This document shows positions 3 through 41,502 of a stretch of DNA of 64,000 nt, in pieces. The stretch lies in assembly GCA_032718475.1 (NCBI GenBank), contig JAUCBJ010006989.1, positions 1 through 64,000 on the forward strand, written 5' to 3'. Below the pieces are notes generated by a model. It saw only the letters and a list, made by a program, of their open reading frames with translations, was not told the DNA's origin and made no database searches. Source of the stretch: Nemertoderma westbladi. Taxonomy: Eukaryota > Animalia > Xenacoelomorpha. Position numbers and translations under genes: made by a program. Each line of letters starts with the position of its first letter. The stretch's first letter is position 1.

Positions 3-892
3 TCATGGAAACGAGGTATATACCTCATGAGGCTATCCTTACACCAGAACCTTTTATTTAAGTAAGTAAACATTTTATAAGTTGACTATCTACATAAATC
101 AGTATTGGTGCTCCTAAATATCTAGTGTTATTAGGCCTACTTGCACTGTAGGCCTAATATCGTAACGTAATCTTTATAAATGTATTATTGTGAATTTTAA
201 AAGGTTTAATTATGTGTAAAAAACAATCAATCAATCAAACCATAATCAGCACAGTAAGCCTACGCATGGGTGGTACCTACGGTGCGCACTACAACGGCTG
301 AACGGCAGTACAGCAATACGGTGTACCGTGCCAATGACTGAATGATTAGCGGTAACTACTGAACTATCTAAACTATTATATTATTACCGGTACTAGGCTA
401 ATTAGGCCTAAACTATAATCACCGCAAGGGTTTCCGGGGCCATGTTTAGATTACATGATATGGCATGTCTGCAGTGTATGGTACCGGCTGACCTGTATTA
501 CAGCCTGACAGTACCGGTACAAATGGTACATGCAGATTGGCAGACAGCCCCTATGTTTTGCAAAATTTGTCAGAAAACCAGCTGATTTATCCTACAGTAA
601 TAATAATTTAACGCATGTTAATTTTGGATAAATAAATATATTATAACTACAATAACAGTTACACTGATGCTGCACGAAGGCCCCACGCAAATTCTACTTG
701 GAAAATTTTCAAACTTTTGCCAAACAACATGTGTACCAAGTTTGGATAGATTTCATCAAGGATTGGCCGAGTTATTAACGTTTAAAATAAAATACTGAAA
801 AAAAACGCGACAGAACGACAGAACGACAGAACGACAGGTTGATTAATGGTACCACTACGCTAAGGCTCTCTCACTTCGTGGCTCGCCCCACA
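3..892 (+). mobile_element. ~890-bp repeat, copy 1; Helentron-associated (HINE/DINE-like) non-autonomous element candidate
   Basis: Near-identical to 2094-2986 (I see 2 substitutions and one 3-bp indel). Contains the GAGGTATATACCTC palindrome, TGTGTACCAAGTTTGG, a (GACAGAAC)n microsatellite and a 3' CAC-TTC-GTG hairpin ending CTCGCCCCACA. The class is inferred from this layout. Confidence 0.6.
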
Positions 893-5071: not shown

Positions 5072-5112
5072 TACTGTTTAGTGAATAATTATAGTGATGC
5101 AACGTTACTAAT

Positions 5113-6180
5113 ATGAAGTCCAAAGGTGATAGCATTTCCGTGGTGGATGCCCGGCTTTCTCTTAATTCTGTTGATCAATATATATTTGAAGCAAAGAACC
5201 GATTCAACTATGCATGGAAAGCTCCACAAGAGTCGAACGCCACAATCGATGAGTTTACCATTTCTAGAACGTTGGGAACCGGTGCATTTGGTAGGGTGCT
5301 ACTTGTCAGACACAACAAAACTAATACATATCACGCAATGAAGATTCTTAACAAAGTTCAAATTGTGGAAAGTAAGCAAGTGGAGCACACACTGACTGAA
5401 AAGCGCATTCTCGCTTGTACAAAATTCCCTTTTATAGTCTCACTGTCTTATCATTTTAAAGATAATATTTATTTGTACGTTGTCATGGAATTTGTAGCTG
5501 GGGGGGAATTGTTTTACCATCTTAGGAGAACCAAACGATTCCCTGAAGATCAAACTAAATTCTACGTAGCCCAAGTTATCCTCGCCTTCCAATTCTTGCA
5601 TTCGATGAATATACTTTATCGCGACTTGAAACCTGAGAATGTTTTGGTTGATAACCAGGGTTATATCAAGCTAGCGGATTTAGGTTTCGCGAAGCAAGTT
5701 ACGGGTCGAACTTATACAATGTGCGGAACACCTGAGTACATAGCGCCGGAGGTCGTCAAAAACGTCGGATACGGGAAATCGGTGGACTGGTGGGCCATCG
5801 GGATATTTATGTACGAATTGTTCCATGGAACACCTCCGTTTGTGGACGAAAACCAACTCGAATTATACCGATCAATATTATATGACGATGTAAAATTTAC
5901 TTCGAAGTTTTCGAAGGTGCTTAAACATTTGATCAGCCATATTTTGAAAAAGGAAATAAGTTCGCGTTATGGTTGTCTTCGGAGTGGCATTGAAGATATC
6001 AGGAACCACGAATGGTTCCGTTCTCTCAACTGGGTCGCTCTGTACCATCGGACATTAATTCCACCTCTTATTCCCAGTACAAAAGGTCCAGGAGATTCAT
6101 CAAATTTTGAGAAATACGAAGAGGTTGAGTTTGCTAAAGCCAATACGGACATATGTTCTAAGGAATTTGAAGATTTTTGA
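5113..6180 (+). CDS. PKA-C: cAMP-dependent protein kinase catalytic subunit-like, intronless, 355 aa
   Basis: GTGAFGRV, HAMKIL, KQVEHT, YRDLKPEN, DLGFAK, RTYTMCGTPEYIAPE, GYGKSVDWW, GPGDSSNF and a terminal FEDF hydrophobic motif. Confidence 0.93.
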   Translation: MKSKGDSISVVDARLSLNSVDQYIFEAKNRFNYAWKAPQESNATIDEFTISRTLGTGAFGRVLLVRHNKTNTYHAMKILNKVQIVESKQVEHTLTEKRILACTKFPFIVSLSYHFKDNIYLYVVMEFVAGGELFYHLRRTKRFPEDQTKFYVAQVILAFQFLHSMNILYRDLKPENVLVDNQGYIKLADLGFAKQVTGRTYTMCGTPEYIAPEVVKNVGYGKSVDWWAIGIFMYELFHGTPPFVDENQLELYRSILYDDVKFTSKFSKVLKHLISHILKKEISSRYGCLRSGIEDIRNHEWFRSLNWVALYHRTLIPPLIPSTKGPGDSSNFEKYEEVEFAKANTDICSKEFEDF

Positions 6181-8399: not shown

Positions 8400-8797
8400 T
8401 TCAAGGTTCGATTATTTGGGGCAGCAGTAAAACCAGGTCTCTTATATGGGAGTACATACTTGGCTCTATCTGCCTAGTACACAAAATCTCTGGATAGCAC
8501 TTATACAAGAATGCTACCCCGGGTTCATTGTGTCAAGTACAATAAACACATCTCCAATAAGACTCTTATACAAAATCGAAGGTGTTTCATTAGTTTCCGA
8601 AAGATTGACACTTGGAAGGAGCCGCCTCTGATTTCCAGGACATTGCTTTCGCCTTGAGGACCAGCCAGTGGAGTGAATAAGCATGGTGGACAGACCATGA
8701 CATCCTTGAAACGCATCTTAAAGGACACTGGCCTTGAAGATGCGGTTGATCTAGCAATAGTCGTGGATGATAGGGAGTTGTGCCGGGGAAATTTGTA
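8400..8797 (+). mobile_element. Degenerate 3' fragment of RTE-clade LINE
   Basis: Aligns to 35460-35895 (GGACATTGCTTTCGCC, GGAGTGAATAAGCATGGTGGACAG, AAGGACACTGGCCTTGAAGATGCGG). Confidence 0.8.
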
Positions 8798-9656: not shown

Positions 9657-9750
9657 TGCACGGGTTAGTGTAGCTAATGAACCAAATCCCGGCGAAACAC
9701 ATAAGCAAAAATGTAACCAATGTGATAATTTTACTTACAGTATTTAAACA
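9657..9750 (+). ncRNA. Degenerate, 5'-truncated copy of the type III hammerhead repeat
   Basis: ~95-bp match to 11433-11527. The core reads CTAATGA (G5->A), stem II is ACC/GGC, and the stem III 5' strand and GUC are missing. Confidence 0.65.
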
Positions 9751-9961
9751 TGTTGTTTCTCTATTTCCAATTAATTTTACTTGCTTGATATTGATTGGTC
9801 TGTCAAAAACATAATTCGTTCAACTCAAAATTACATTTAAGAGACCGGATCATGCTAAACATGGTTGTTTAAAATGCCTTCCTATTATTTTATTTTTATT
9901 ATAATTAGCAACCATGCACTAGACAATTTATCCCATATAGTGTTGCTATGGAAATGATTGT

Positions 9962-11340
9962 TTATTATTATTATTATTATTATTAGCTGACGTCGTACAT
10001 GAGACAATAGAATTAATTGCACAGTACAAAATACTTAGGAATAATTAAGTACTTAGGTAATGATTAAATTTAAAGCACAAATAAGATATTAATGGTGAAT
10101 ATATGAATATAACAACGAAATTATAAGTACAATATAACAATACTATAATATGATAAAATCGAATATCAGTATTAACTAGTGCACAGGAAATTCAGGATGT
10201 CATCCAGATCAACGGCATTAAAATTAGAAACTTCTAGGTTATTGAATTTGCATTCCAAAATTTCTTTAACAAAATTAACTTTATATAAATCTACAACAGG
10301 TGTGTAACGTAGATAGGATACTTGCTTAGTTGAAACTGTTCGTAAATCAAAGTGATTACACGCGTTACCAATAGATCTAAAGTTTCGACCACTTCGAGTT
10401 CTACAATCAAAAAGTGTCAGTTCTCCTAAGAAACGGATGCAAGGTTTGAACGAATTGAGTAAACTGTGAGCGAAAGTGACGAACCTTGATTGTAACATTA
10501 TAGAAGGGTGTTTAAATGGCACTACACTTTCCACTATGTATCTATGTGTATTAAACGGGAGATTAAAAAGTAGTCTGACATTAATATTCCATGTGGTGTA
10601 AATACGTGAGCATGAACTAGAGAATAAATCCCACAAGTTACTACCATAAAAACACATAGAATAAATACGCTGAATATTGCACAAATTATAGGGATTTGCG
10701 AAATGGAATTCCTGCCTTAATTTATTTAGTTTGCCTATAAATTGTCCCCTTTTACGAGCAATGTCCTGTTTCAAGGAGTTTTCGCAGTCAAGTAGATTAC
10801 CGAGATGTAAGGCCTCCTTGACCCAAGGTAGATTGACACCATTTAAGCTAATGGAAACATTGGGAATAATTGTAATTGAACCAAAGGAAATACATTTTGA
10901 TTTCGACTTTTCCGGTATAATGTTTGTACTAAACTGTAAGTTAAATTCTGATGCGAACTTGGCGCACAACGAGACCATGTGCTGTAGACCAATTAGAGAA
11001 GGACACAGTAAAAGTAAATCTTGTCTGCATATGCCAATACGCCCAAACAAGTAGAACCAATATAACATCCAATTCTAGAATCCCGCAACTTCCTCAGAAG
11101 AATATCTAATAGAATACAAAATAATATGGGAGATGCCACTGAGCCCTGCCGAACGCCGTTACTGATAGGGAAACAGTTCGAAGTCGAGCCTTCCCAACGA
11201 ACACAACATGATTGGTTTGTGTATATCCATAACAATGTACGGAGGAAGAAAGGTGAGAAGCCTTTTTTAATCAACTCAAGGAAAAGTTTGCACCATTCGA
11301 CTAGATCAAATGCCTTAGAAAGATCAAGAAGGGAACCGTT
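9962..11340 (-). mobile_element. 5'-truncated non-LTR retrotransposon (RT, C-terminus and (TAA)n tail), frameshifted at YADD
   Basis: ORFs 10993-11274 and 10172-11068 give GVRQGSVASPILF, LAYAD|DLLLL and HLGN. DLSKAFD-like sequence (LDLSNAFD) lies near 11310-11330. (ATT)n at ~9963-9984 is the tail. Clade not determined. Confidence 0.85.
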
Positions 11341-11424
11341 GATTTGATCTGGAATGCAATGCTAGTTTGTTTATATGTATGTGTGTGTGTTTAGCTGGTT
11401 TTTGGTGTAGCTAGTTTGATTAAC

Positions 11425-11478
11425 ATGTGTCCTGCACGGGTTAGTGTAACTGATGAGCCAAATCCCGGCGAAACACAT
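11425..11478 (+). ncRNA. Type III hammerhead ribozyme
   Basis: ATGTGT-C | CTGCAC-gggtta-GTGTAA-CTGATGA-GCC-aaatccc-GGC-GAA-ACACAT. It has the canonical core, a GUC triplet (C17=11431), a 6-bp stem III, G10.1-C11.1, and a 5-bp stem I plus one C.A mismatch that is C-G in the 9657 copy. Confidence 0.8.
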
Positions 11479-11581
11479 ATGCAAAAATGTAACCAATGTG
11501 ATAAATTTACTTACAGTATTTTAAACAGGGTTGCGCTTTGTGTCCCTGCTTAAATAAAATGATATTACATATATATATATA

Positions 11582-12420
11582 TTAAGAATGCTGTACCGGC
11601 TTGTCGACAAAATTGCGACGCCAAAACTCCCTATCACCCATGACATTTGCTAGTTTATCCGCATCTTCAAGGCCAGTGTCCTTTAAGATGCGTCTCAAGA
11701 AAGTCATGGGCTGTCCACCATGCTTATTCACTCCATGAGGCTGCCAAAGTACAAGATTATGCACTGGCTGGTCCTCACGGGGAAAGCAATGTCTGCAAAG
11801 CGGAGGCGATTTTGTTCTAGTGTCAAGCTTGGGTGAACCAATGAGACACCTCCAATGTCATATAGTGTCTGGTTGGAGATGTGTTAATTGCACTTGACAC
11901 AATGAACCCGGCGCAGCATTCTAGTGAAAGTGCCATCCAGAGATTTGGTATCCTCTGCAGTTAGAGCCCAGCGGACTCTCATATCAGAGTGGTACTACTG
12001 CTGCCATAAATAATCAAACCGTAAGGCTCCGTGGGCATTCCAAATCCTACACAGACTGAATGAATCCCCATTAGACTTCGAATGGATCTGTGTCACCATC
12101 AGCAGTAGACACAAACGTGGTGGAACCATCGTACAGGGATCGTAGCTACATTAGCTGCAATAATTTTCCCAGGAATCCCATATGCTGCCAGTAAGCTGAA
12201 CATACGTGGTCGGGAGATTGAGTCGAAGGCATTAAAGAAGTCAACAAAAAGATGATAACCAAATCAGTTGTCTGTCCTTCTTTATCGATAACTCTTCGAT
12301 TATCCATCTAAGTGCCAGAATAGGCTCCATGGTTCCACGAATTTTACGGAACCATTGGCTCCCACGTAACAGTCTCTCAACAGGTTCCCTGATGCGATTT
12401 AATAGAATTATGGTGTTCTC
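11582..12420 (-). mobile_element. RTE-clade LINE fragment with internal deletions, ending at the stop codon followed by (TA)n
   Basis: ORF 11582-11764 matches the C-terminus of 35602-35919. 12100-12420 matches RT sequence at 42490-42800. Confidence 0.85.
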
Positions 12421-14861: not shown

Positions 14862-15690
14862 ACCTGCGAAGCGGAGGCGATTTTGTTCTAGTGTCAGCTT
14901 GGGGAACCAATGAGACACCTCCAACGTTATATTGTGTCTGGTTGGAGATGTGTACATTGTACTTGACACAATGAACCCGGCGTAGAATTCTTGTGAATAT
15001 GCCATCCAGAGATTTGGTGTCCTCAGCAGTTAGAGCCCAGTATATGGGTACTAGTTCTACTGCTGTTCTAAATAATCGAACCTTGTGTTTCCGTTTTATT
15101 CTATGTGACTTCCAATTATTGGAAAGTCTATTCAATTACATTACATTAGTTCCCATTACTTAGTCTTTCACCTGACTCCCATATCCATAATCCCAAGTAA
15201 CAGAAGTCGTCCACATACTCAAGCACATCATCCTTTGAGCTTTCCCTCATATTTAGGGAACATTTCCACAGGGATGTCGAAGCTAACTGTCAAAGTCTTG
15301 GTTTTCTCGGAATTAAAAAAAGACCAGCACTAGAAGCACGCTGATCCAATAAGAATAGCAGCCTGTTGATTGGTTGATCCTGGGATCCTGAGATTGGGAG
15401 CCCTGGGCTCCCTCAATGTGATTCAAGCAGAAGCAGTACTTCTAAGTGATCAGCAAAGATTAGATCAGTTATGTACTTGGCTGAATATTCTCGACTCCAA
15501 TAGAGGGTGTTGCCATCACCGCATGTTTGTTTATTATGATGGTCGAGGTCGAAGGACATAATCCACAACAATTATGAACAAGAATGATGCAAGCATCACT
15601 CAAGCAAGAATCACCCTCGCGAGCCCCATGTAACTTCGATTGATTCGGTGTCACCATCAGCAGTAGATACAAATGTTGTGGAATCATATA
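14862..15690 (-). mobile_element. Degenerate RTE RT/C-terminal fragment
   Basis: KVRLFRTAV...WALTAEDTKSLDG; similar to 41715-42530. Confidence 0.8.
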
Positions 15691-17785: not shown

Positions 17786-19102
17786 TCACTTAGTTTTTGT
17801 GTAGATCTGAGAATATCGACATGCAAAAACGGCTGCAAGGGCTACAATGAAAGGTAAGCCCACCAAACTAAGCAGAGAAGAGGCTAATTGGAAACCAAAA
17901 TAGTCATTGAGGAGACCACCAAAGACACCACCCATAATATTTCCAAGAGACAATGAGATCCGATAAGCTTGTTGGAGAAGAGATCTGGTATCAACATTGT
18001 CAGGATATCCACAAACTTTCACAACCAGTTGCGTTTGTGTTTCGAGTCCAGGCACCTGGTACATCCCCCCACCAAGTCCCAACAGCGCAATTCCAGTGAG
18101 TGATATTGCCAGAGAATGTGGTATACCAAGTATTTCCGTTGGTCCTATTAGTTGCATTGATACAGTTGTCACTATGGTAGCAATTACAGTTGGATATATT
18201 GGTTTCCATCTTTTAATCAAGACTGTCATTAATAACCCAGTGGAACATAGAAAAACTGGAAAGATCATAAAATCAAGACCAATATAGTATTGGGTTACAC
18301 TGTAGTAGTTGTGTATATATGAGGCATAATTTACCATGGCAAAATATTCACTGATGTTGTAAAATACATTCCATGTAAAGATGAGCGCGATACCAGGATT
18401 CTTGAGTATTCCAACGTAAGTAGGTCTTTCTTCCTTAGTTTCGCATCGATCATAAAGGCGACCAGGGGACTCAAACAAGCAGTAAAGGATGATAACGAGA
18501 AACATCGAACCAGAAATTACAAATGGGAATGGAAACCCTAATTTCGCAAATACCGAGGAACCAAAAACTGGAGCAAGTGTGTAGCCCAGCGTGTCAAATA
18601 CAACAGCTAGACTGGCTACTAAAGTGCGGTGCAAAGGGTTTAATTCCATAAGGAGATTTAGTGAATACATATAACTGATATTAAGACCAATTCCTTCCAA
18701 GGCTCGTAATGAAAAGCAAACAAGTATATGAACTGTGTTGTTCGGAATGAATTCCACAAATCCGAAAAGCAAATGAGAAATTGATCCAAGAATCCCAAAG
18801 AGACCGAGGGAAATTCGTGTTCCCCAGTTAGTGATCGAGTGATTTAAAATTAGGAAAATGAGTAGTCTGACAAATGAGAACATTACAAGCAATGAACCGG
18901 TGAGGGTCTTTGACCAACCCCGATGTTCAACAACAATTGGGAAAAATGTTTCCAGGAGATTGTTACACCACCCAGGTATAATTTGAAAAGTAACCAATAA
19001 AGCCACCAATACATAAAGTCGATAGCCTTTGAGGTGTTTGCTATTTTTGATTCTGTCAATTGAAAGTTTATTGCTAATGGGACTTCCTTCTTCAACTTCC
19101 AT
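17786..19102 (-). CDS. MFS transporter, SLC18B1/VMAT-like, single coding exon, ~438 aa from ATG 19102
   Basis: About 12 hydrophobic segments with RALEGIG, GYTLAPVFGS, LGFPFPF and GGVFGGLLNDYFGF motifs. The ORF-track extension to GTG 19192 runs through (TA)n and is probably non-coding. Confidence 0.85.
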   Translation of the reverse strand: MEVEEGSPISNKLSIDRIKNSKHLKGYRLYVLVALLVTFQIIPGWCNNLLETFFPIVVEHRGWSKTLTGSLLVMFSFVRLLIFLILNHSITNWGTRISLGLFGILGSISHLLFGFVEFIPNNTVHILVCFSLRALEGIGLNISYMYSLNLLMELNPLHRTLVASLAVVFDTLGYTLAPVFGSSVFAKLGFPFPFVISGSMFLVIILYCLFESPGRLYDRCETKEERPTYVGILKNPGIALIFTWNVFYNISEYFAMVNYASYIHNYYSVTQYYIGLDFMIFPVFLCSTGLLMTVLIKRWKPIYPTVIATIVTTVSMQLIGPTEILGIPHSLAISLTGIALLGLGGGMYQVPGLETQTQLVVKVCGYPDNVDTRSLLQQAYRISLSLGNIMGGVFGGLLNDYFGFQLASSLLSLVGLPFIVALAAVFACRYSQIYTKTK

Positions 19103-19243
19103 TTCGTACTTTACAATGAATATAATATATATATATATATACAGCCAGGTAATAAATATAGTACTATATATGATTGCAGCAGAGACCGACACTGTAATGA
19201 ATATAAAAGTTGTGGAATTTGATGTTGATTTGCTACACTAAAC

Positions 19244-22477: not shown

Positions 22478-25400
22478 TCAAAGTAGAACATTTGAAGCAA
22501 TTTTATCAAGAATTTTAAGAGCCTCAAAACGAAATTCGCTTATATATTTTTCTAATTTGGCCAATCGAGCAGCCCTTTCGTTTTCTCTTGTATGCTCGAC
22601 ATGCTTCTCACCGAGTAACTTTCTATTAATCACGGACCCAAATACAATTGGTATGTTGCTAATCTTCACTGCCAACTCCTTTATCTCTAATTCGATTTTT
22701 CCAATTCTTGCAGATAATATATCCGAGAAAGCTAATACGTTCCCTCCACATTCTATCACTTGTTCCTCTAAATGATAAAGCTGCTTGTTTACAGACCTCT
22801 TAAGATTCTCAACCGCTTTTTTTGCGTCATTCAGTTCTCGTATTGCTTTAGCCTGTTCGGATGCCAATGTTAACAATGCGATTTTCGATTGGTAACTTCC
22901 ATTATTGATTGCTTTTACGGCAACCTGGAGTTTACCTAAAATACGTTCCTCAAGAACATCGGGCGTATTTTCTAATTCGCAAAGCTTTTTTTCACCCAGT
23001 TCCATGCGAGTCAGTGTAATTTCTTGAGGTTCTGAAAATTTCCTAAATTGGTAGTCAATGCTTCGCTTTAATCCCTCTAACATGTTATACATGTTGTACC
23101 TGATCTCTGATAGATTTATTATCACATTTTTCAACTTTATATCTATGTCTTGCAAACGTTTCTCTAAAGATTTATTATTTGCATTATCTCTCTTATAAAT
23201 GAAATTATTAGCTGGTCTTTCCTCCCAGGAGCTTAGGTTATGTAATATTTCAGCTGTATAATTAATACGGATGCGACGTTTGCTGTGGATTCCAACAAAT
23301 CGAAGGATCAGAGAGATTAAGATGAAAGGGGGAGGAAGTACTGGTTTCGAATAATATTCCTCAATCAATGTGTACCTCTGAAAGAGCCAATACTCGTCTG
23401 TTTTTTCTTGAACTGTTTCGAAGGTGGAGCTAAACATGGCAATAAGGAGATTCAAAAGTAGGATATAGCAAAGTATAAGATAAAATGAGAGAAATAGGAT
23501 GGTCCACGAGGATTGTTGAGCGCATGGTGAATCAAAGGAGCTTGTTTGACAATCATCCATGTTGTACTCGTCGAGAAATAATTCACCATAAATATGAAAG
23601 TATGAATGATAGAATATGTTTTTAAATATTGTTATTGCATCCCTTTTGTCGGATGGGTACATTAAGCCCTGGGTCACGACGCCATAAGCAATTGAATACA
23701 CCGCTAATACAATTACAAAAAACATTAAATCAACCACCATTTTTTTCATGATGACCAGCTTTGGACCAAGAGTACGACTGAGTGATGCAGCATGTAGTAA
23801 ACGAGTGAATAAAAACCAAAGTGAAAAACAGTACATTATTTTCACTGCTGTTGTGTGATCACCTACAAATCTCAAAATCATACCAATTGTAAAGAAGGCG
23901 ATTCCTAGGAAGTCAAGTTTATTCCAAATATCTCTACTCCAAGACAAAACTTTATTCTTCCAAGATGGGATGTCGCGGTCATATATTTGACGAAATTCCT
24001 CAATAAATATTATAAATGTCCATACCATGAGAAATATTTCCCAACTGCTTGGCTTATTAGCAGGATTTGCATGAGGGTAATTTATTGATGATTTGTTGGT
24101 ATTAAATGTTTCATTAGAATCATCAAGGTCGTAAACATGCATTCTTACGATATAACTAAAAAGAAACAAATATAGAACAAAAAAGATAACATTGAACCAA
24201 AATACAACTATCGGAGCCCTACCAAACTGATATAATTTCTCTCCATAGCTGAGTTGGCGAACATTAAACTCATCCAGAGATGAAAGTTGTCGAATATTTT
24301 CAACTGGTTTGCGCAGTTTAAAGTGGGGGCGACTTTGATCCAGAATTCTGCTGATACAACCTCTCTTAATTATGCTGAGCTCTTCCACATCCCCATGGTA
24401 TTCAACAAAATAAGGTGCTAAAAAAGGGGTGCACATTAACCCAGCTATTATAAACTGTGAGGTATCTTGGGACATCTCACCAAACCATAAACTTGTTAAT
24501 AGCGCTTGGCAAGCTGATTGTGACATAAATTTCCGGCAGTTGCCTGTTTGCGCCAATTCTAATATAGTTGTTTTCCCGAAAAGTGGAAGCTCAGCACAAA
24601 GAATGCACATGGTTTTCAAGCAGTTATTTTTATAACATTCATCTAAAACACCAATAGCTCTCTCCTCAAAAGTTGTGGCTAACGCTTTGTATTGGCTGAT
24701 TTGTTTGAAGTCACGATTGTAATGAGATGTTGATAACGACTTAGCTATTTTACATGCCAAAAGTGCAGAGGCGCAAGAGAAATTTGCTTCACACCAGAAG
24801 TACTGTGACATTTCAGTTCGGCATAACAACAACGAATATATCAACAACTCTCTTGCCGGTTCCTCAAACACATTTTCCAAGTATTCGACTTCATCTTTAG
24901 AGATACCACCATTGGCATCCTGTTTGTCTATTCCAGATTCAAGGGCATGTGATATTGGTTTGTTTATTTTCTTAGTTTCAGATATGTAAATTAGCGGCTC
25001 AGATATATTACTTGGTGAATCCAATTGAATTTTCGATTTACCCTTGTCTTTGTTGTATTTTGAATCTCTCTTATAAATAGAATTGTAATATATCGAATGA
25101 CCAATTAGATATTCAATCACATCACCAACATTATACAAAGTGAACCTGTCGCCATTTGTTATATAATTATTTAATATCTTTTCAAGAATACAATTGCGTG
25201 GCAAGTTATTATACAAATCTGTCAATCTCGATACAGTTAGAAATTTCAATAAATTGACCCCATTATCGGAAAATAAGTGAACAAAATCCATTTGATCATT
25301 TACTAAGGCAGCATAAAGGTGTTGATGGAGATTCACGTGATTCGATCTTATTCCTCCGTCAAAGATATATGATTTTGCAATGTCAGCACGGTTCCATTCC

Positions 25401-26554
25401 ATGCATAACTGTATTTGTTCAGATACTCCATACATATTCATAATCGCTTTTAATATTCCAGCTTCTACATCTGTTGTTAACTTGTGTATTATAGTAATAC
25501 GCTTATAATACTTCATACATTCTAATAACATTGCAACAGTTTGTTCTAAATCGCCCCTTCCCCATAGTTCCTCTATTTGTTTTTCGATTTCACTCCCAAT
25601 TCCTGAATCGTTCAAATTAGACTGATTTGTAAATATTTCGTGTTTTCTCTCATACATCCAAGATATTAATCCAGCCAATCCGCCGGAATCACCCATAACA
25701 ATAATTGATATTTTACGTGCCAAAGATCGTTTCACATCTAAGAGTGTGGTTTTATTGTCTCCCTCCAACAAAATGGATATCTGAGGTAATCGACTTTTAT
25801 TATTATCCTGGCCTAAACTCGCTTGGTTTATAATCTCCGTCGAGAAATCAGCCCAAATCTCCAACTGTGATCCAACTTTTCCTGTTGTACCATCGTCTAT
25901 AAGTAAGAAGTGTGTGTGGTTGGGGTCTAATGCTACGCATTCGTCTTCCGAGTCACCATGGTCACCATCCGATTGGTACTGAATAACTGTCGGATTAGAT
26001 TGCGGGGATTGGATATCTTGTTTCGCTGTATTGCATGTTAATCTTTCCCTCTTCGCAACTGCTCCCCAAGTTGTTATTCCAATTAGCAAAACATCGGAAG
26101 ATTCCTTGGTATTTTGCGACACAACATCCCCAACCATTTTTGCAATACCAGTATTCAACCCGTGGTCCATTATCCAAACACCCTCTATTTGTGTCAGTTT
26201 AATTAGCATGTTTTGAAACGTTCGCCGTAAATTAGCCCTCTGGACACAAGGTTTTACAATATTTCCAAATACAGAGATAATTAGAGATGGCCGGTCCAGC
26301 TTCCAACAGTTTCTAAACAGTGCCAGCAGATCTTTAACATCAGTATCTACACTACATCTCAAGTACCTCGCTGTTTTTTTATCGCCTTTCAGTTGCATCT
26401 CACCAAATGCGTCTGTTGGGGCTGTCGTTGTACATGTACTAGATTCCCATTGAATTGAATCACCCATCTCACACTGATCAGAATGTTTAGATTTCTTCTT
26501 TCCACAGCAACATATTAAATTTCCTTCAATTTCATATTCTTCACTTAGATTTTC
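22478..26554 (-). CDS. TRPM: TRPM-family cation channel, large second coding exon
   Basis: Acceptor TTTCAG|GAA at 26554 is in frame (ENLSEE...CCCG...MGD). MHR motifs (PTDAFG, LDPNHTHFLLIDDG, WNRADIAK), six TM segments, LGPKL, YFHIYGELFLDE pore, LLLNLLIAMF, TRP box WLFQRY, PVLPPPF, then coiled coil. No NUDT9-H or kinase domain. Confidence 0.95.
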   Translation of the reverse strand, partial: ENLSEEYEIEGNLICCCGKKKSKHSDQCEMGDSIQWESSTCTTTAPTDAFGEMQLKGDKKTARYLRCSVDTDVKDLLALFRNCWKLDRPSLIISVFGNIVKPCVQRANLRRTFQNMLIKLTQIEGVWIMDHGLNTGIAKMVGDVVSQNTKESSDVLLIGITTWGAVAKRERLTCNTAKQDIQSPQSNPTVIQYQSDGDHGDSEDECVALDPNHTHFLLIDDGTTGKVGSQLEIWADFSTEIINQASLGQDNNKSRLPQISILLEGDNKTTLLDVKRSLARKISIIVMGDSGGLAGLISWMYERKHEIFTNQSNLNDSGIGSEIEKQIEELWGRGDLEQTVAMLLECMKYYKRITIIHKLTTDVEAGILKAIMNMYGVSEQIQLCMEWNRADIAKSYIFDGGIRSNHVNLHQHLYAALVNDQMDFVHLFSDNGVNLLKFLTVSRLTDLYNNLPRNCILEKILNNYITNGDRFTLYNVGDVIEYLIGHSIYYNSIYKRDSKYNKDKGKSKIQLDSPSNISEPLIYISETKKINKPISHALESGIDKQDANGGISKDEVEYLENVFEEPARELLIYSLLLCRTEMSQYFWCEANFSCASALLACKIAKSLSTSHYNRDFKQISQYKALATTFEERAIGVLDECYKNNCLKTMCILCAELPLFGKTTILELAQTGNCRKFMSQSACQALLTSLWFGEMSQDTSQFIIAGLMCTPFLAPYFVEYHGDVEELSIIKRGCISRILDQSRPHFKLRKPVENIRQLSSLDEFNVRQLSYGEKLYQFGRAPIVVFWFNVIFFVLYLFLFSYIVRMHVYDLDDSNETFNTNKSSINYPHANPANKPSSWEIFLMVWTFIIFIEEFRQIYDRDIPSWKNKVLSWSRDIWNKLDFLGIAFFTIGMILRFVGDHTTAVKIMYCFSLWFLFTRLLHAASLSRTLGPKLVIMKKMVVDLMFFVIVLAVYSIAYGVVTQGLMYPSDKRDAITIFKNIFYHSYFHIYGELFLDEYNMDDCQTSSFDSPCAQQSSWTILFLSFYLILCYILLLNLLIAMFSSTFETVQEKTDEYWLFQRYTLIEEYYSKPVLPPPFILISLILRFVGIHSKRRIRINYTAEILHNLSSWEERPANNFIYKRDNANNKSLEKRLQDIDIKLKNVIINLSEIRYNMYNMLEGLKRSIDYQFRKFSEPQEITLTRMELGEKKLCELENTPDVLEERILGKLQVAVKAINNGSYQSKIALLTLASEQAKAIRELNDAKKAVENLKRSVNKQLYHLEEQVIECGGNVLAFSDILSARIGKIELEIKELAVKISNIPIVFGSVINRKLLGEKHVEHTRENERAARLAKLEKYISEFRFEALKILDKIASNVLL

Positions 26555-26781
26555 CTGAAATGATAAGATTACACATATTGTATTATAAATATTTTTGAGA
26601 TTTGGATATTTATGTCGCCGTTATTGCATCGTAGAATGAAAGGGAATTACACCACAATAGTTTTGTTGCTTCACAGTTCATCTAATTATTTTCTATATGT
26701 TGTGTAACTAATGTTGCGTGTTTGAAAGCTACATTATCTTAAAAACGTAACTAGACATTCTTACGTAAGTTAAGCTGTTAC

Positions 26782-28189: not shown

Positions 28190-31100
28190 GGGAGCAGCTC
28201 ACATCCTGATTATCTCTAGATCTGCCTCAACCCTCGACTCAGTTCCACTCGGGGTAGCCCACACCCTGATTATCTCTAGATTTGCCTCAACCCTCGCCTG
28301 AGTTCCACTCAGGGTAGCTCACATCCTGATTCTCTCTAGATCTTCCTCAACCCTCGTCTGAGTTCCACTCGGGGTAGCCCACACCCTGATTATCTCTAGA
28401 TCTGCCTCAACCCTCGACTCAGTTCCACTCGGGGTAGCCCACACCCTGATTATCTCTAGATCTGCCTCAACCCTCGCCTGAGTTCCACTCAGGGTAGCTC
28501 ACATCCTGATTCTCTCTAGATCTGCCTCAACCCTCGCATGAGTTCCACTCGGGGTAGCCCACACCCTGATTATCTCTAGATCTTCCTCAAACCTCGTCTG
28601 AGTTCCACTCGGGGTAGCCCACACCCTGATTATCTCTAGATCTTGCTCAACCCTCGTCTGAGTTCCACTCGGGGTAGCCCACACCCTGATTATCTCTAGA
28701 TCTTGCTCAACCCTCGTCTGAGTTCCACTTGGGGTAGCCCACATCCTGATTATCTCTAGATCTTCCTCAACCCTCACCTCAGTTCCACTTGGGGTAGCCC
28801 ACACCCTGATTATCTCTGATCTGCCTCAACCCTCGCCTGAGTTCCACTCGGGGTAGCCCACACCCTGATTATCTCTAGATCTGCCTCAAACCTCGCCTCA
28901 GTTCCACTCGGGGTAGCCCACACTCTGATTATTTCTAGATCTGCCTCAACCCTCGCCTGAGTTCCACTCGGGGTAGCCCACACCATGATTATTTCTAGAT
29001 CTGCCTCAACCCTCGCCTTAGTTCCACTCGGGGTAGCCCACACCATGATTATTTCTAGATCTGCCTCAAACCTCGCCTCAGTTCCACTCGGGGTAGCCCA
29101 CACCCTGATTATTTCTAGATCTGCCTCAACCCTCGCCTGAGTTCCACTCGGGGTAGCCCACACCATGATTATTTCTAGATCTGCCTCAACCCTCGCCTTA
29201 GTTCCACTCGGGGTAGCCCATACCATGATTATTTCTAGATCTGCCTCAACCCTCGCCTGAGTTCCACTCGGGGTAGCCCACACCCTGATTATCTCTAGAT
29301 CTGCCTCAACCCTCGCCTCAGTTCTACTCGGGGTAGCCCACACCCTGATTATTTTCTAGATCTGCCTCAACCCTCGCCTGAGTTCCACTCGGGGTAGCCC
29401 ACACCCTGATTATCTCTAGATCTGCCTCAACCCTCGCCTCAGTTCCACTTGGGGTAGCCCACACCCTGATTATCTCTGATCTGCCTCAACCCTCGCCTGA
29501 GTTCCACTCGGGGTAGCCCACACCCTTATTACTCTAGATATGCCTCAAACCTCACCTGAGTTCCATTCGGGGTAGCCCACACCATGATTATCTCTAGATC
29601 TGCCTCAAACCTCGTCTGAGTTCCACTCGGGGTAGCCCACACCATGATTATTTCTAGATCTGCCTCAACCCTCGCATGAGTTCCACTCGGGGTAGCCCAC
29701 ACCCTGATTATCTCTAGATCTGCCTCAACCCTCGCATGAGTTCCAGTCGGGGTAGCCCACACCCTGATTATCTCTAGATCTGCCTCAACCCTCGCATGAG
29801 TTCCAGTCGGGGTAGCCCACACCCTGATTATCTCTAGATCTGCCTCAACCCTCGCATGAGTTCCAGTCGGGGTAGCCCACACCATGATTATCTCTAGATC
29901 TGCCTCAAACCTCGTCTGAGTTCCACTCGGGGTAGCCCACACCATGATTATTTCTAGATCTGCCTCAACCCTCGCATGAGTTCCAGTCGGGGTAGCCCAC
30001 ACCCTGATTATCTCTAGATCTGCCTCAACCCTCGCATGAGTTCCACTCGGGGTAGCCCACGCCCTTATTACTCTAGATATGCCTCAAACCTCACCTGAGT
30101 TCCATTCGGGGTAGCCCACACCATGATTATCTCTAGATCTGCCTCAAACCTCGTCTGAGTTCCACTCGGGGTAGCCCACACCCTGATTATCTCTAGATCT
30201 CCTTCAACCCTCGTCTGAGTTCCACTCGGGGGTAGCCCACACCCTGATTATCTCTAGATCTTCCTCAACCCTCGCCTCAGTTCCACTTGGGGTAGCCCAC
30301 ACCCTGATTATCTCTAGATCTGCCTCAACCCTCGCCTGAGTTCCACTCGGGGTAGCCCACATCCTGATTATCTCTAGATCTTCCTCAACCCTCGTCTGAG
30401 TTCCACTCGGGGGTAGCCCACACCCTGATTATCTCTAGATCTTCCTCAACCCTCGCCTCAGTTCCACTTGGGGTAGCCCACACCCTGATTATCTCTAGAT
30501 CTGCCTCAAACCTCGCCTCAGTTCCACTCGGGGTAGCCCACACCCTGATTATCTCTAGATCTGCCTCAACCCTCGCCTTAGTTCCACTCGGGGTAGCCCA
30601 CACCATGACTATCTCTAGATCTGCCTCAACCCTCGCCTGAGTTCCACTCGGGGTAGCCCACACCATGATTATTTCTAGATCTGCCTCAACCCTCGCATGA
30701 GTTCCAGTCGGGGTAGCCCACACCCTGATTATCTCTAGATCTGCCTCAACCCTCGCCTCAGTTCCACTCGGGGTAGCCCACACCCTGATTATCTCTAGAT
30801 CTTCCTCAACCCTCGTCTGAGTTCCACTCGGGGTAGCCCACACCCTGATTATCTCTAGATCTGCCTCAACCCTCGCCTGAGTTCCACTCGGGGTAGCCCA
30901 CACCCTGATTATCTCTAGATCTTCCTCAACCCTCGTCTGAGTTCCACTCGGGGTAGCCCACACCTTGATTATCTCTAGATCTGCCTCAACCCTCGCCTGA
31001 GTTCCACTCGGGGTTGCCCACACCCTGATTATCTCTAGATTTGCCTCAACCCTCGCCTGAGTTCCACTCAGGGTAGCTCACATCCTGATTCTCTCTAGAT

Positions 31101-34100
31101 CTTCCTCAACCCTCGTCTGAGTTCCACTCGGGGTAGCCCACACCCTGATTATCTCTAGATCTGCCTCAACCCTCGACTCAGTTCCACTCGGGGTAGCCCA
31201 CACCCTGATTATCTCTAGATCTGCCTCAACCCTCGCCTGAGTTCCACTCAGGGTAGCTCACATCCTGATTCTCTCTAGATCTGCCTCAACCCTCGCATGA
31301 GTTCCACTCGGGGTAGCCCACACCCTGATTATCTCTAGATCTTCCTCAAACCTCGTCTGAGTTCCACTCGGTGTAGCCCACACCCTGATTATCTCTAGAT
31401 CTGCCTCAACCCTCGTCTGAGTTCCACTCAGGGTAGCCCACACCCTGATTATCTCTAGATCTGCCTCAACCCTCGCCTCAGTTCCACTCGGGGGTAGCCC
31501 ACACCCTGATTATCTCTAGATCTTCCTCAACCCTCACCTGAGTTCCATTCGGGGTAGCCCACACCATGATTATCTCTAGATCTGCCTCAAACCTCGCCTC
31601 AGTTCCACTCGGGGTAGCCCGCACCCTGATTATTTCTAGATCTGCCTCAACCCTCGCCTGAGTTCCACTCGGGGTAGCCCACACCATGATTATTTCTAGA
31701 TCTGCCTCAACCCTCGCCTTAGTTCCACTCGGGGTAGCCCATACCATGATTATTTCTAGATCTGCCTCAACCCTCGCCTGAGTTCCACTCGGGGTGCCCA
31801 CATCCTGATTATCTCTAGATCTGCCTCAACCCTCGCCTGAGTTCCACTCGGGGTAGCCCATACCATGATTATTTCTAGATCTGCCTCAACCCTCGCCTCA
31901 GTTCCACTTGGGGTAGCCCACACCCTGATTATCTCTAGATCTTGCTCAACCCTCGTCTGAGTTCCACTCGGGGTAGCCCACACCCTGATTATCTCTAGAT
32001 CTGCCTCAACCCTCGCCTGAGTTCCACTCGGGGTAGCCCACACCCTGATTATCTCTAGATCTTCCTCAACCCTCGTCTGAGTTCCACTCGGGGTAGCCCA
32101 CACCCTGATTATCTCTAGATCTTCCTCAACCCTCGTCTGAGTTCCACTCGGGGTAGCCCACACCCTGATTATCTCTAGATCTTGCTCAACCCTCGTCTGA
32201 GTTCCACTTGGGGTAGCCCACATCCTGATTATCTCTAGATCTTCCTCAACCCTCACCTCAGTTCCACTTGGGGTAGCCCACACCCTGATTATCTCTGATC
32301 TGCCTCAACCCTCGCCTGAGTTCCACTCGGGGTAGCCCACACCCTGATTATCTCTAGATCTGCCTCAAACCTCGCCTCAGTTCCACTCGGGGTAGCCCAC
32401 ACCCTGATTATTTCTAGATCTGCCTCAACCCTCGCCTGAGTTCCACTCGGGGTAGCCCACACCATGATTATTTCTAGATCTGCCTCAACCCTCGCCTTAG
32501 TTCCACTCGGGGTAGCCCACACCATGATTATTTCTAGATCTGCCTCAAACCTCGCCTCAGTTCCACTCGGGGTAGCCCACACCCTGATTATTTCTAGATC
32601 TGCCTCAACCCTCGCCTGAGTTCCACTCGGGGTAGCCCACACCATGATTATTTCTAGATCTGCCTCAACCCTCGCCTTAGTTCCACTCGGGGTAGCCCAT
32701 ACCATGATTATTTCTAGATCTGCCTCAACCCTCGCCTGAGTTCCACTCGGGGTAGCCCACACCCTGATTATCTCTAGATCTGCCTCAACCCTCGCCTCAG
32801 TTCTACTCGGGGTAGCCCACACCCTGATTATTTTCTAGATCTGCCTCAACCCTCGCCTGAGTTCCACTCGGGGTAGCCCACACCCTGATTATCTCTAGAT
32901 CTGCCTCAACCCTCGCCTCAGTTCCACTTGGGGTAGCCCACACCCTGATTATCTCTGATCTGCCTCAACCCTCGCCTGAGTTCCACTCGGGGTAGCCCAC
33001 ACCCTTATTACTCTAGATATGCCTCAAACCTCACCTGAGTTCCATTCGGGGTAGCCCACACCATGATTATCTCTAGATCTGCCTCAAACCTCGTCTGAGT
33101 TCCACTCGGGGTAGCCCACACCATGATTATTTCTAGATCTGCCTCAACCCTCGCATGAGTTCCACTCGGGGTAGCCCACACCCTGATTATCTCTAGATCT
33201 GCCTCAACCCTCGCATGAGTTCCAGTCGGGGTAGCCCACACCCTGATTATCTCTAGATCTGCCTCAACCCTCGCATGAGTTCCAGTCGGGGTAGCCCACA
33301 CCCTGATTATCTCTAGATCTGCCTCAACCCTCGCATGAGTTCCAGTCGGGGTAGCCCACACCATGATTATCTCTAGATCTGCCTCAAACCTCGTCTGAGT
33401 TCCACTCGGGGTAGCCCACACCATGATTATTTCTAGATCTGCCTCAACCCTCGCATGAGTTCCAGTCGGGGTAGCCCACACCCTGATTATCTCTAGATCT
33501 GCCTCAACCCTCGCATGAGTTCCACTCGGGGTAGCCCACACCCTTATTACTCTAGATATGCCTCAAACCTCACCTGAGTTCCATTCGGGGTAGCCCACAC
33601 CATGATTATCTCTAGATCTGCCTCAAACCTCGTCTGAGTTCCACTCGGGGTAGCCCACACCCTGATTATCTCTAGATCTCCTTCAACCCTCGTCTGAGTT
33701 CCACTCGGGGGTAGCCCACACCCTGATTATCTCTAGATCTTCCTCAACCCTCGCCTCAGTTCCACTTGGGGTAGCCCACACCCTGATTATCTCTAGATCT
33801 GCCTCAACCCTCGCCTGAGTTCCACTCGGGGTAGCCCACATCCTGATTATCTCTAGATCTTCCTCAACCCTCGTCTGAGTTCCACTCGGGGGTAGCCCAC
33901 ACCCTGATTATCTCTAGATCTTCCTCAACCCTCGCCTCAGTTCCACTTGGGGTAGCCCACACCCTGATTATCTCTAGATCTGCCTCAACCCTCGCCTGAG
34001 TTCCACTCGGGGTAGCCCACACCCTGATTATCTCTAGATCTGCCTCAAACCTCGCCTCAGTTCCACTCGGGGTAGCCCACACCCTGATTATCTCTAGATC

Positions 34101-35217
34101 TGCCTCAACCCTCGCCTTAGTTCCACTCGGGGTAGCCCACACCATGACTATCTCTAGATCTGCCTCAACCCTCGCCTGAGTTCCACTCGGGGTAGCCCAC
34201 ACCATGATTATTTCTAGATCTGCCTCAACCCTCGCATGAGTTCCAGTCGGGGTAGCCCACACCCTGATTATCTCTAGATCTGCCTCAACCCTCGCCTCAG
34301 TTCCACTCGGGGTAGCCCACACCCTGATTATCTCTAGATCTTCCTCAACCCTCGTCTGAGTTCCACTCGGGGTAGCCCACACCCTGATTATCTCTAGATC
34401 TGCCTCAACCCTCGCCTGAGTTCCACTCGGGGTAGCCCACACCCTGATTATCTCTAGATCTTCCTCAACCCTCGTCTGAGTTCCACTCGGGGTAGCCCAC
34501 ACCTTGATTATCTCTAGATCTGCCTCAACCCTCGCCTGAGTTCCACTCGGGGTTGCCCACACCCTGATTATCTCTAGATCTGCATCAACCCTCGCATGAG
34601 TTCCACTCGGGGTAGCCCACACCCGGATTATCTCTAGATCTTCCTCAACCCTCGTCTGAGTTCCACTCGGGGTAGCCCACACCCTGATAATCTCTAGATC
34701 TGCCTCAACCCTCGTCTGAGTTCCACTCAGGGTAGCCCACATCCTGATTATCTCTAGATCTGCCTCAACCCTCGCGTCATTTCTACTCGGGGGTAGCCCA
34801 TACCCTGATTATATCTAAATCTGTCTCAACCCTCGCCTGGGTTCCACTCGGGGTAGCCCACATCCTGATTATCTCTAGATCTGCCTCAACCTTCGTCTGA
34901 GTTCCACTTGGGGTAACCCACACCCTGATTATCTCTAGATCTGCCTCAACCCTCGCCTCAGTTCTACTCGGGGTAGCCCACACCATGATTATTTCTAGAT
35001 CTGCCTCAACCCTCGCCTGGGTTCCACTCGGGGTAGCCCACACCCGGATTATTTCTAGATCTGCCTCAACCCTCGCCAGAGTTCCACTCGGGGGTAGCCC
35101 ACACCCTGATTATCTTTAGATCTGCCTCAACCCTCGTCTGAGTTCCACTCGAGGTAGCCCACATCCTGATTCTCTCTAGATCTGCCTCAACCCTCGCCTG
35201 AGTTCCACCGGGGGTAG
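28190..35217. repeat. 60-bp tandem satellite, ~117 monomers, with higher-order duplications
   Basis: Consensus CACACCCTGATTATCTCTAGATCTGCCTCAACCCTCGCCTGAGTTCCACTCGGGGTAGCC. Identical ORF translations recur at offset 3479. Confidence 0.98.
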
Positions 35218-35424: not shown

Positions 35425-35960
35425 GGTGAGTAGGCTTTCCAGGATTTGGAAGTCACCGAGAATTAATCGGAAACTTAAGGTCCGGTTATTTAGAGCAGCA
35501 GTAGTTCCAGTACTCCTCTATGGGAGTCCATGCTGGGCTCTAACTGCTGAGGACACCAAATCTCTGGACGGCACTTTCACAAGAATGCTACGCCGGGTTC
35601 ATTGTGTCAAGTTCAATGCACACATCTCCAACAACTATATAACATTGGAGGTGTCTCATTGGTTCCCCCAAGCTTGACACTAGAACAAAATCGCCTCCGC
35701 TTTGCAGGACATTGCTTTCGCCGTGAGGACCAGCCAGTGCATAATCTTCTTCTTTGGCAGCCTCATGGAGTGAATAAGCATGGTGGACAGCCCACGACTT
35801 TCTTGAGACGCATCTTAAAGGACACTGGCCTTGAAGATGCGGATGATCTAGCAAATGCCATGGGTGATAGGGAGTTGTGGCGGTGCAATTTTGTCGATAA
35901 GCCGGCACAGCATTCTTAAAAATGCAGCTCCAATGCAGCATGCCGATCCTAGTAGTAGGA
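35425..35960 (+). mobile_element. 5'-truncated RTE-clade LINE with 3' UTR and (TAG)n tail
   Basis: LSRIWKS...LKVRLFRAAV..VLLYGS..WALT; RLRFAGHCFR; tail AATGCAGCATGCCGATCCTAGTAGTAG. Confidence 0.9.
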
Positions 35961-41356: not shown

Positions 41357-41502
41357 GTTTATTCATAATATTACTTAATAGTTAATACGATGTTTAATAT
41401 CAATGTGCAGCTTACGGGTTACAGAGTGGCATGTTATTCTAACCAAATCACAATCGATAATCAAAGCATTATAGCTGCATTATATATATATTACATATAT
41501 AT

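What the first reader, a model, noticed from the sequence alone, without database searches (positions are those of the whole stretch)
11425..11527. Type III hammerhead ribozyme with complementary loops in an animal repeat
Seen: a complete hammerhead fold in type III topology. Stem III is ATGTGT/ACACAT, the cleavage triplet is GUC (after 11431), the CUGAUGA and GAAA core is intact, stem II is GCC/GGC and stem I is CTGCAC/GTGTAA. Loop 1 (GGGUUA) and loop 2 (AAAUCCC) can form a 5-bp kissing helix, GGGUU/AAUCC. The one stem I mismatch is a C-G pair in the second copy, so the two-copy consensus is perfect. Known: most animal hammerheads are minimal type I motifs of Penelope-like elements and retrozymes, and loop I-II contacts enable fast cleavage at low Mg2+. 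Inference: this is the footprint of an uncharacterised ribozyme-bearing mobile RNA family (retrozyme-like or a retroelement end).
Basis: partly seen in the sequence, partly recalled or inferred. Interest (0 to 1): 0.85.

Follow-up and report, generated by a model that had tools for sequence, protein, structure and literature searches.

The report
Locked plant-type ribozyme in animal repeat
A many-copy repeat in an animal genome carries a complete hammerhead (self-cutting RNA) motif of the type typical of plant elements and viroids, together with an upstream stretch predicted to fold back and lock it, so it is likely a small jumping element that would travel as a self-cut, circular RNA, a design described for plants but not one I found described for animals.

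Summary
The type III hammerhead at 11425-11478 is real: 1 descriptor hit in the window, 0 in 300 shuffles. One detail is wrong. The second copy (9657-9750) has no C-G pair, lacks the cut site and has a broken core. The conclusion survives, because G stands at 11449 in over 99% of contig depth in three DNA runs. The motif sits in a young repeat of roughly 100 or more copies that runs past both ends of the finding. That blocked design is published for plant LTR retrozymes and viroids; most animal retrozymes are type I and unblocked. Near this copy I found no primer site, purine tract, short tandem unit or reading frame. Best reading: a non-autonomous, retrozyme-like element moved by a partner's reverse transcriptase. 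Cleavage, transcription, circles and the full unit are not shown. Type III motifs with loop pairing are already known in insects, and loop pairing is common in phage ribozymes. Verdict: new variant of a known kind.

The parts
11425..11478 (+). Type III hammerhead motif; predicted cut after 11431; this copy has a C.A mismatch at the base of stem I where the family majority has C-G
   Evidence: Sequence; descriptor 1 hit versus 0 in 300 shuffles; majority letter at 11449
11438..11466 (+). Loop 1 (11438-11443) and loop 2 (11460-11466), predicted 5-pair kissing helix; the same bases also support a nested misfold
   Evidence: Duplex -4.3 kcal/mol, chance 1-4%; misfold is the minimum-energy fold of the 55-nt motif; no covariation available
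11368..11430 (+). Blocking arm, complementary to 11434-11495; with it the RNA is predicted to form a 128-nt rod (11368-11495) with the cut site in the apical loop
   Evidence: -49.7 kcal/mol, z -6.3, 0 of 300 shuffles; minus strand -25.8, z -2.0; 48 pairs, 10 of them G.U; shuffling only 11391-11424 reaches the observed energy in 1 of 2000;
11346..11563 (+). Truncated copy of a many-copy repeat; 5' edge lies between 11332 and 11370; the family continues with other letters after 11563
   Evidence: Contig depth and loose ends in runs X1, X2, X4; neighbouring LINE homology stops at 11325-11331
9657..9750 (+). Second, decayed copy; begins one base after the predicted cut site; core G5 and G10.1 changed; no GUC; predicted inactive
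9962..11331 (-). Neighbour, not part of the element: 5'-truncated LINE fragment (end of the reverse-transcriptase gene), head to head with the ribozyme repeat
   Evidence: RVT_1; relatives with RVT_1, two of 12 also with an endonuclease domain; tblastn limits; summed depth at most about 1,000 versus up to about 100,000 on the repeat

Best explanation
This is a truncated copy of a young, many-copy animal repeat that carries a type III hammerhead motif and an upstream arm predicted to lock it, and it is likely a non-autonomous, retrozyme-like element whose RNA would cut itself, close into a circle and be copied back into DNA by another element's reverse transcriptase. Steps: (1) shown: motif, arm complementarity, multi-copy state, intact majority core. 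(2) Inferred: a transcript running through two units lets the arm of the second unit pair with the already made ribozyme body of the first, which largely frees the second hammerhead to fold and cut (predicted). (3) Predicted: in the unit-length RNA the arm pairs with the body and brings the two cut ends together at the tip of the rod, where a host ligase would join them. (4) Predicted: in the circle the rod keeps the ribozyme off. (5) Inferred: a Penelope- or LINE-type reverse transcriptase copies the RNA, leaving mostly short pieces cut at both ends, most of which run across the cut site.
For: Motif far beyond chance. One X4 contig spans 11418-11467 unbroken at depth 2,775, against 8.6-52.9 for the 7 other X4 pieces listed, which suggests about 100 near-identical copies (inference; the tool warns that depth is no copy number); the only variant at 1% or more over 11399-11488 restores stem I. 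Rod: z -6.3, plus strand 24 kcal/mol stronger than minus, arm shuffle 1 of 2000; forcing the hammerhead costs 23.6 kcal/mol with the arm, and 0 of 50 natural type III motifs with equal flanks reach that (highest 15.3). The family letter seen at 11399 (loose ends) would add a G-C pair to the rod (read from the sequence). Two-unit model: the cost falls from 23.6 to 7.1 kcal/mol and the monomer's ends pair (positions 3 and 236 of 237). The same blocked design is described for plant retrozymes and viroids (PMC4918200; PMC7229834). Two separate copies begin at or one base after the cut site (X4 record 23; window 9657). The ATG at 11559 meets a stop after 6 codons when read into the family's continuation.
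Against: No tandem or two-ribozyme unit was seen: no go-back joint within 11399-11563, and the full unit could not be read. Even without the arm the hammerhead fold is 4-5 kcal/mol above a misfold, a gap reached by 5 of 52 natural type III motifs; the model omits the kissing helix. The family is too uniform to show covariation or core-versus-flank conservation. Starts at the cut site are 2 of about 12 listed 5' edges, with most rows not shown, and X4 depth does not rise at 11432. Part of the rod is a TG microsatellite that pairs easily. Only 30 letters beyond 11563 could be seen, so a long reading frame further on is not excluded.
Confidence: 0.58

Rival explanations
1. It is the terminal repeat (pseudo-LTR or untranslated end) of an autonomous Penelope-like or other retroelement, and the short pieces are truncated insertions of that element.
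For: Penelope-like elements carry hammerheads in their terminal repeats, start reverse transcription internally and leave truncated copies (PMC4209133; PMC11167929; PMC8557442). The pieces here vary at both ends. Splice-like donor at 11377 and acceptors ending at 11516 and 11527 would fit a 5'-UTR intron. The family continues beyond 11563.
Against: The Penelope hammerheads in the passages read are type I or minimal forms (PMC4209133 has 0 occurrences of 'type III'). The ATG at 11559 does not open a frame. A rod that joins the cut ends suits a circle better than a linear mRNA (inference).
Confidence: 0.2
2. It is part of the LTR of a true plant-style LTR retrozyme that uses LTR-retrotransposon enzymes in an animal.
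For: Type III motif inside a long blocking hairpin is the plant LTR layout (PMC4918200). The rod begins with TG (11368) and ends with CA (11495). A long Pao-type LTR-element frame lies in the window.
Against: No primer-binding-like site or purine tract beside the rod on either strand, no target duplication around it, the family continues past both rod ends, and copies end at many places.
Confidence: 0.08
3. The ribozyme is a passenger that hardly cuts: the repeat spreads as an ordinary SINE-like or DNA-level repeat, and the fold is inherited from an ancestor.
For: The hammerhead is not the lowest-energy fold in any context tested. Most copies run through the cut site. In an anole Penelope element ribozyme mutants did not impair insertion in vitro (PMC11167929). 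A young family keeps everything, useful or not.
Against: The majority form has a perfect core, three closed stems and complementary loops. The rod is strand-asymmetric with 10 G.U pairs and puts the cut site at the tip, which points to selection on the plus-strand RNA (inference).
Confidence: 0.11
4. It belongs to the adjacent LINE, as an inverted piece of that LINE's own RNA.
For: It lies head to head with the LINE's truncated 5' end, and a 7-base word is shared by the outer ends of the pair (background 393 of 20,000).
Against: Summed depth on the repeat is about a hundred times that on the LINE piece beside it, the reverse of what a 5' part of a LINE would show.
Confidence: 0.03

Closest known systems
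Plant LTR retrozymes (PMC4918200, passages; PMC11722881, passages)
   Same: Type III hammerhead with 6-bp stem I; motif predicted to be blocked in a long hairpin by a complementary sequence; multi-copy; no coding frame seen.
   Different: Animal host; no primer site, purine tract, paired LTRs or short target duplication found at this copy; 3-bp stem II and Watson-Crick loop pairing instead of the usual 4-bp stem and non-canonical contacts.
Animal non-LTR retrozymes (PMC7229834, passages and Discussion; bioRxiv 10.64898/2026.07.22.740005, part 1 of 5 and passages)
   Same: Animal host, AT-rich, many dispersed single copies, no LTR signals, presumed partner enzyme of Penelope or LINE type.
   Different: Defined there by type I hammerheads in tandem units, mostly predicted to be unblocked (some mussel circles excepted). 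Here type III, blocked, and no tandem unit was seen.
Type III hammerheads with loop pseudoknots in Drosophila pseudoobscura, termites, other dipterans and HDV-like circular RNAs (PMC7936874, passages)
   Same: Type III topology in an animal genome; Watson-Crick pairing between helix I and loop 2.
   Different: Those have a long helix I with an internal loop and a 6-bp stem II, and the termite ones are two isolated motifs per genome. This one is compact and sits in a many-copy repeat.
Type III hammerheads of viral and metagenome contigs (loci L129-L201)
   Same: 6-bp stem I and complementary loops; 7 of 52 distinct motifs have a loop duplex as strong; 2 of 52 have a 3-bp stem II with a 7-nt loop (L143, L189).
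   Different: No similarity outside the catalytic core; 0 of 50 show a blocking flank as strong.
Hammerheads of Penelope-like elements (PMC4209133, PMC8557442, passages; PMC11167929, parts 1-2 of 4)
   Same: Hammerhead in a many-copy animal repeat with variable ends.
   Different: Type I or minimal forms; linked to a reverse-transcriptase gene, which was not seen here.

Membership tests
Hammerhead ribozyme, type III | Conserved core (CUGANGA, GAAA, NUH) with three stems, stem III open | tested here: met
   majority form has full stem I. Rfam models gave no match
Hammerhead ribozyme, type III | Loop 1-loop 2 tertiary contact | tested here: inconclusive
   5 pairs possible, chance 1-4%; no covariation in this uniform family
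Hammerhead ribozyme, type III | Site-specific self-cleavage | not testable with these tools
   only a weak hint: two copies begin at the predicted site
Animal non-LTR retrozyme | Type I hammerhead | tested here: not met
   topology is type III
Animal non-LTR retrozyme | Tandem units of about 150-450 nt, each with a ribozyme | tested here: inconclusive
Animal non-LTR retrozyme | Multi-copy and non-coding | tested here: inconclusive
   multi-copy met; no frame in the 250 or so bases seen, rest of the unit unseen
Animal non-LTR retrozyme | Linear and circular unit-length RNA in tissue | not testable with these tools
   only contigs were served
Plant LTR retrozyme | Type III hammerhead blocked in a long hairpin | tested here: met
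   predicted fold; comparison with PMC4918200
Plant LTR retrozyme | Paired LTRs, primer-binding site, purine tract, 4-bp target duplication | tested here: not met
   none at either window copy; both copies are truncated, so full copies remain untested
Penelope-like element terminal repeat | Adjacent reverse-transcriptase plus GIY-YIG frame; partial tandem or inverted layout | tested here: inconclusive
   none in the window's frames near the copies; the family's continuation could not be read beyond 30 letters

The most novel reading that the evidence does not exclude
Animals harbour a retrozyme built on the plant and viroid plan: a genome-encoded RNA circle with a type III hammerhead locked by its own complementary arm and ligated at the tip of a rod, moved by non-LTR enzymes. 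It would break the type I = animal, type III = plant split and offer a genomic source for the type III hammerheads of animal HDV-like circular RNAs.
Probability: 0.4. Interest if true: 0.75.

Novelty: new variant of a known kind. Interest (0 to 1): 0.6.

Why it matters
Retrozymes are sorted in the papers read into plant elements (type III, blocked, LTR-dependent) and animal elements (type I, mostly unblocked, tandem); a 2026 preprint still uses that split. How animal circles avoid cutting themselves again is left open in PMC7229834. An animal family with a type III motif and a built-in lock crosses that line. It gives a short, testable RNA switch (arm present or absent, one unit or two) and a candidate link between genomic repeats and animal viroid-like RNAs that carry type III hammerheads.

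Tried and rejected
Rfam: no hammerhead match. Exact-pattern scans for the core with this loop 2 found 0 stretches in metagenome, viral and prokaryote collections; a distant BLAST against phages gave 4 records with 23-24 nt matches only. No RNA holder is listed. One contig of run X3 (RNA status a guess, other organism label) covers 11437-11563 at depth 5.6; it is not used as evidence of expression. Run X8 laid nothing; this is no proof of absence. The family's continuation after 11563 was not found elsewhere in the window. My early idea that a reading frame starts at the ATG near 11560 was a frame slip and is withdrawn. A type I reading, and an intact ribozyme on the minus strand in the arm, were checked by eye and by the core scan of both strands: neither is present. 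tRNA origin or polymerase III promoter: no tRNA at a lowered threshold, one loose A-box at 11403, no plus-strand B-box in the element. Relatives of the neighbouring LINE in viral contigs: none confirmed. A kinase search placed the host only broadly, with animal best hits at about 50% identity. A paper I recall as a survey of type III motifs in eukaryotic genomes (Seehafer et al. 2011) is not held; it, and supplements I did not open (for example the dataset of PMC3088659), may list animal type III repeats and would lower the novelty. Paper searches.

Full report
Observation. The hammerhead is there as described, at 11425-11478 on the plus strand. Stem III has 6 pairs (11425-11430 with 11473-11478), the GUC triplet ends at 11431, stem I has 6 positions with a C.A mismatch at its base, the CUGAUGA and GAAA boxes are intact, and stem II has 3 G-C pairs round a 7-nt loop. 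A type III descriptor finds this one site in the window and none in 300 dinucleotide shuffles of the whole window. Rfam models do not detect it. The loops can form 5 pairs; random loops do as well in 1-4% of draws, so this is suggestive and not proven.

The copy at 9657-9750 begins at the position matching 11433, so it has no GUC, no 5' strand of stem III and no C to pair with its G. It also has changes at G5 and G10.1 and is predicted dead. The conclusion is rescued by public DNA runs: G is read at 11449 in more than 99% of the summed depth in X1, X2 and X4, and it is the only difference listed at 1% or more over 11399-11488. X1 and X2 are one sample, so these are two samples. The window copy is the odd one.

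A many-copy repeat. Summed depth rises from 79 on the LINE flank to as much as 100,000 over the ribozyme in X1; overlapping contigs inflate that sum. A cleaner figure is one X4 contig, 11418-11467, at depth 2,775, against 8.6-52.9 for the 7 other X4 pieces listed. That suggests about 100 near-identical copies across the cut site and first core box; this is an inference, and the tool warns that depth is no copy number. The family reaches at least 11370 upstream and goes on with other letters after 11563, so this copy is cut short. Pieces with their own flanks start and end at many places. Two start at or one base after the predicted cut, both behind a run of A (X4 record 23; window 9657). That is 2 of about 12 listed 5' edges, with most rows not shown, and X4 depth does not rise at 11432, so it is a weak hint. 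No joint goes back within 11399-11563, so no short tandem unit was seen. The ATG at 11559, read into the continuation, stops after 6 codons. There is no primer-binding-like site, purine tract or target duplication at either copy. The LINE fragment beside it (homology ends at 11325-11331) has about a hundredth of the depth and is unlikely to own the motif.

The 60 bases upstream are complementary to the ribozyme. The RNA of 11368-11495 is predicted to form one rod of 48 pairs (10 G.U), -49.7 kcal/mol, z -6.3, with the cut site in the apical loop; the minus strand gives only -25.8. Part of the arm is a TG microsatellite, but shuffling only the rest of the arm (11391-11424) reaches the observed energy in 1 of 2000 trials. 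Forcing the hammerhead costs 23.6 kcal/mol with the arm and about 4 when the RNA starts at 11400 or later. Of 50 natural type III motifs from viral and metagenome contigs given equal flanks, none reaches 23.6 (highest 15.3). The family letter at 11399 would add one more G-C pair to the rod (and the sequence). Against activity: the remaining gap of 4-5 kcal/mol is to a misfold that pairs loop 1 with loop 2 and stem II; it persists with the majority letter, and only 5 of 52 natural motifs have such a gap. The model cannot count the kissing helix, which would narrow it.

How it likely works. In a model of two units in a row, the arm of the second unit pairs with the ribozyme body of the first, and the cost of folding the second hammerhead drops from 23.6 to 7.1 kcal/mol. 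In the unit-length RNA the two cut ends are held together (the unknown middle was a filler). This suggests a cycle: cut, hold the ends at the tip of the rod, ligate, and stay locked as a circle until a partner reverse transcriptase copies it. Copying a circle would explain why most copies run across the cut site; copying a cut linear RNA would explain the few that start there. Shown: motif, complementarity, copy state. Predicted: folds. Inferred: transcription, cleavage, ligation, partner enzyme. Confidence 0.58. Rivals: end of an autonomous Penelope-like element (0.2), non-cutting passenger (0.11), LTR retrozyme (0.08), part of the LINE (0.03).

Comparison with what is known. Plant LTR retrozymes have type III motifs paired in a long hairpin that prevents the fold (PMC4918200, passages). 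Animal retrozymes are described as type I, tandem, and mostly free to fold, in contrast to plant retrozymes and viroids (PMC7229834, passages and Discussion); a 2026 preprint keeps this split (10.64898/2026.07.22.740005, part 1 of 5 and passages), as do reviews (PMC7761336, PMC6155905, PMC11722881, passages). Type III motifs with loop pseudoknots are known in fly and termite genomes and in HDV-like circles, with a longer build (PMC7936874, passages), and about 40% of hammerheads were predicted to use a pseudoknot (PMC3088659, passages). My scans agree: 30 of 130 motifs in 128 of about 880 viral stretches were type III, and 7 of 52 distinct type III motifs have a loop duplex as strong as this one. 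None resembles this element outside the core. Penelope hammerheads are type I or minimal in the passages read (PMC4209133; PMC8557442; PMC11167929, parts 1-2 of 4). So it works like a plant retrozyme at the RNA level and sits in the genome like an animal one, and it fails a defining test for each. Nine paper searches showed no description of a blocked type III retrozyme in an animal. The library lacks most subscription papers, a survey I recall of type III motifs in eukaryotes was not held, and I read no supplements.

Earlier notes. An unreviewed note on another piece of this genome reports two type III motifs within 652 bases of an abundant non-coding repeat (e1-10610887). If that is the same family the unit would be about 600 nt and the two-unit layout would exist; I could not test this, and it is not independent support. 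Other notes describe several more hammerhead repeat families in this genome.

Verdict. Observation partly confirmed, interpretation partly supported, new variant of a known kind, interest 0.6.

Noticed in passing
window 9952-9958 and 11557-11563: The same 7-base word flanks the LINE tail on one side and the ribozyme repeat's right end on the other (background 393 of 20,000). It could be a target duplication of one chimeric insertion in which a LINE enzyme copied the repeat's RNA in inverted orientation; found after the fact, weak.
   Followed up: partly
window 28200-35213: 60-nt satellite, 117 copies, 92% match, about 52% GC with strong strand skew.
   Followed up: no
window 50496-58571 (+): Open frame of 2,691 codons with Pao peptidase, DUF1759, integrase zinc-binding and DUF5641 domains: a Pao-type LTR retrotransposon.
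   Followed up: no
window 5098-6180 (+), 17786-19237 (-), 22478-26620 (-): Three uninterrupted host gene frames: a protein kinase A-like gene (best hits about 50% identical), a major-facilitator transporter and a 1,380-codon TRPM-type channel.
   Followed up: partly
window 11566-12031, with relatives at 8403-8794, 14863-15134, 35427-35919, 41483-42529: A second dispersed repeat, the 3' part of a non-LTR retrotransposon (weak RVT_1 at 41785-42330), abuts the right end of the ribozyme repeat.
   Followed up: partly
window 11377-11527: A splice-donor-like word at 11377 and acceptor-like words ending at 11516 and 11527 bracket the whole rod; splicing would remove the ribozyme from a read-through transcript. 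Untested.
   Followed up: no
window 11403-11414: Loose polymerase III A-box match without a B-box; an RNA starting near 11400 would lack most of the blocking arm. The match is within chance.
   Followed up: partly
runs X1, X2, X4, loose ends at 11418, 11430, 11468-11493: Some contigs keep the ribozyme region at about 90-93% identity while their flanks look like diverged versions of the arm, and several diverge near 11493, the foot of the rod: possibly an older subfamily.
   Followed up: partly
L144, L150, L175 and L152, L160, L164, L166, L177, L193, L198, L199: Metagenome contigs with type III hammerheads: three carry the same motif twice, 1.2-1.7 kb apart, and eight are 4.5-5 kb long, as circular RNA agents might be (the link to such agents is recalled).
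   Followed up: no
window 3-892 and 2094-2986: An 893-nt direct duplication at 99.4% identity.
   Followed up: no
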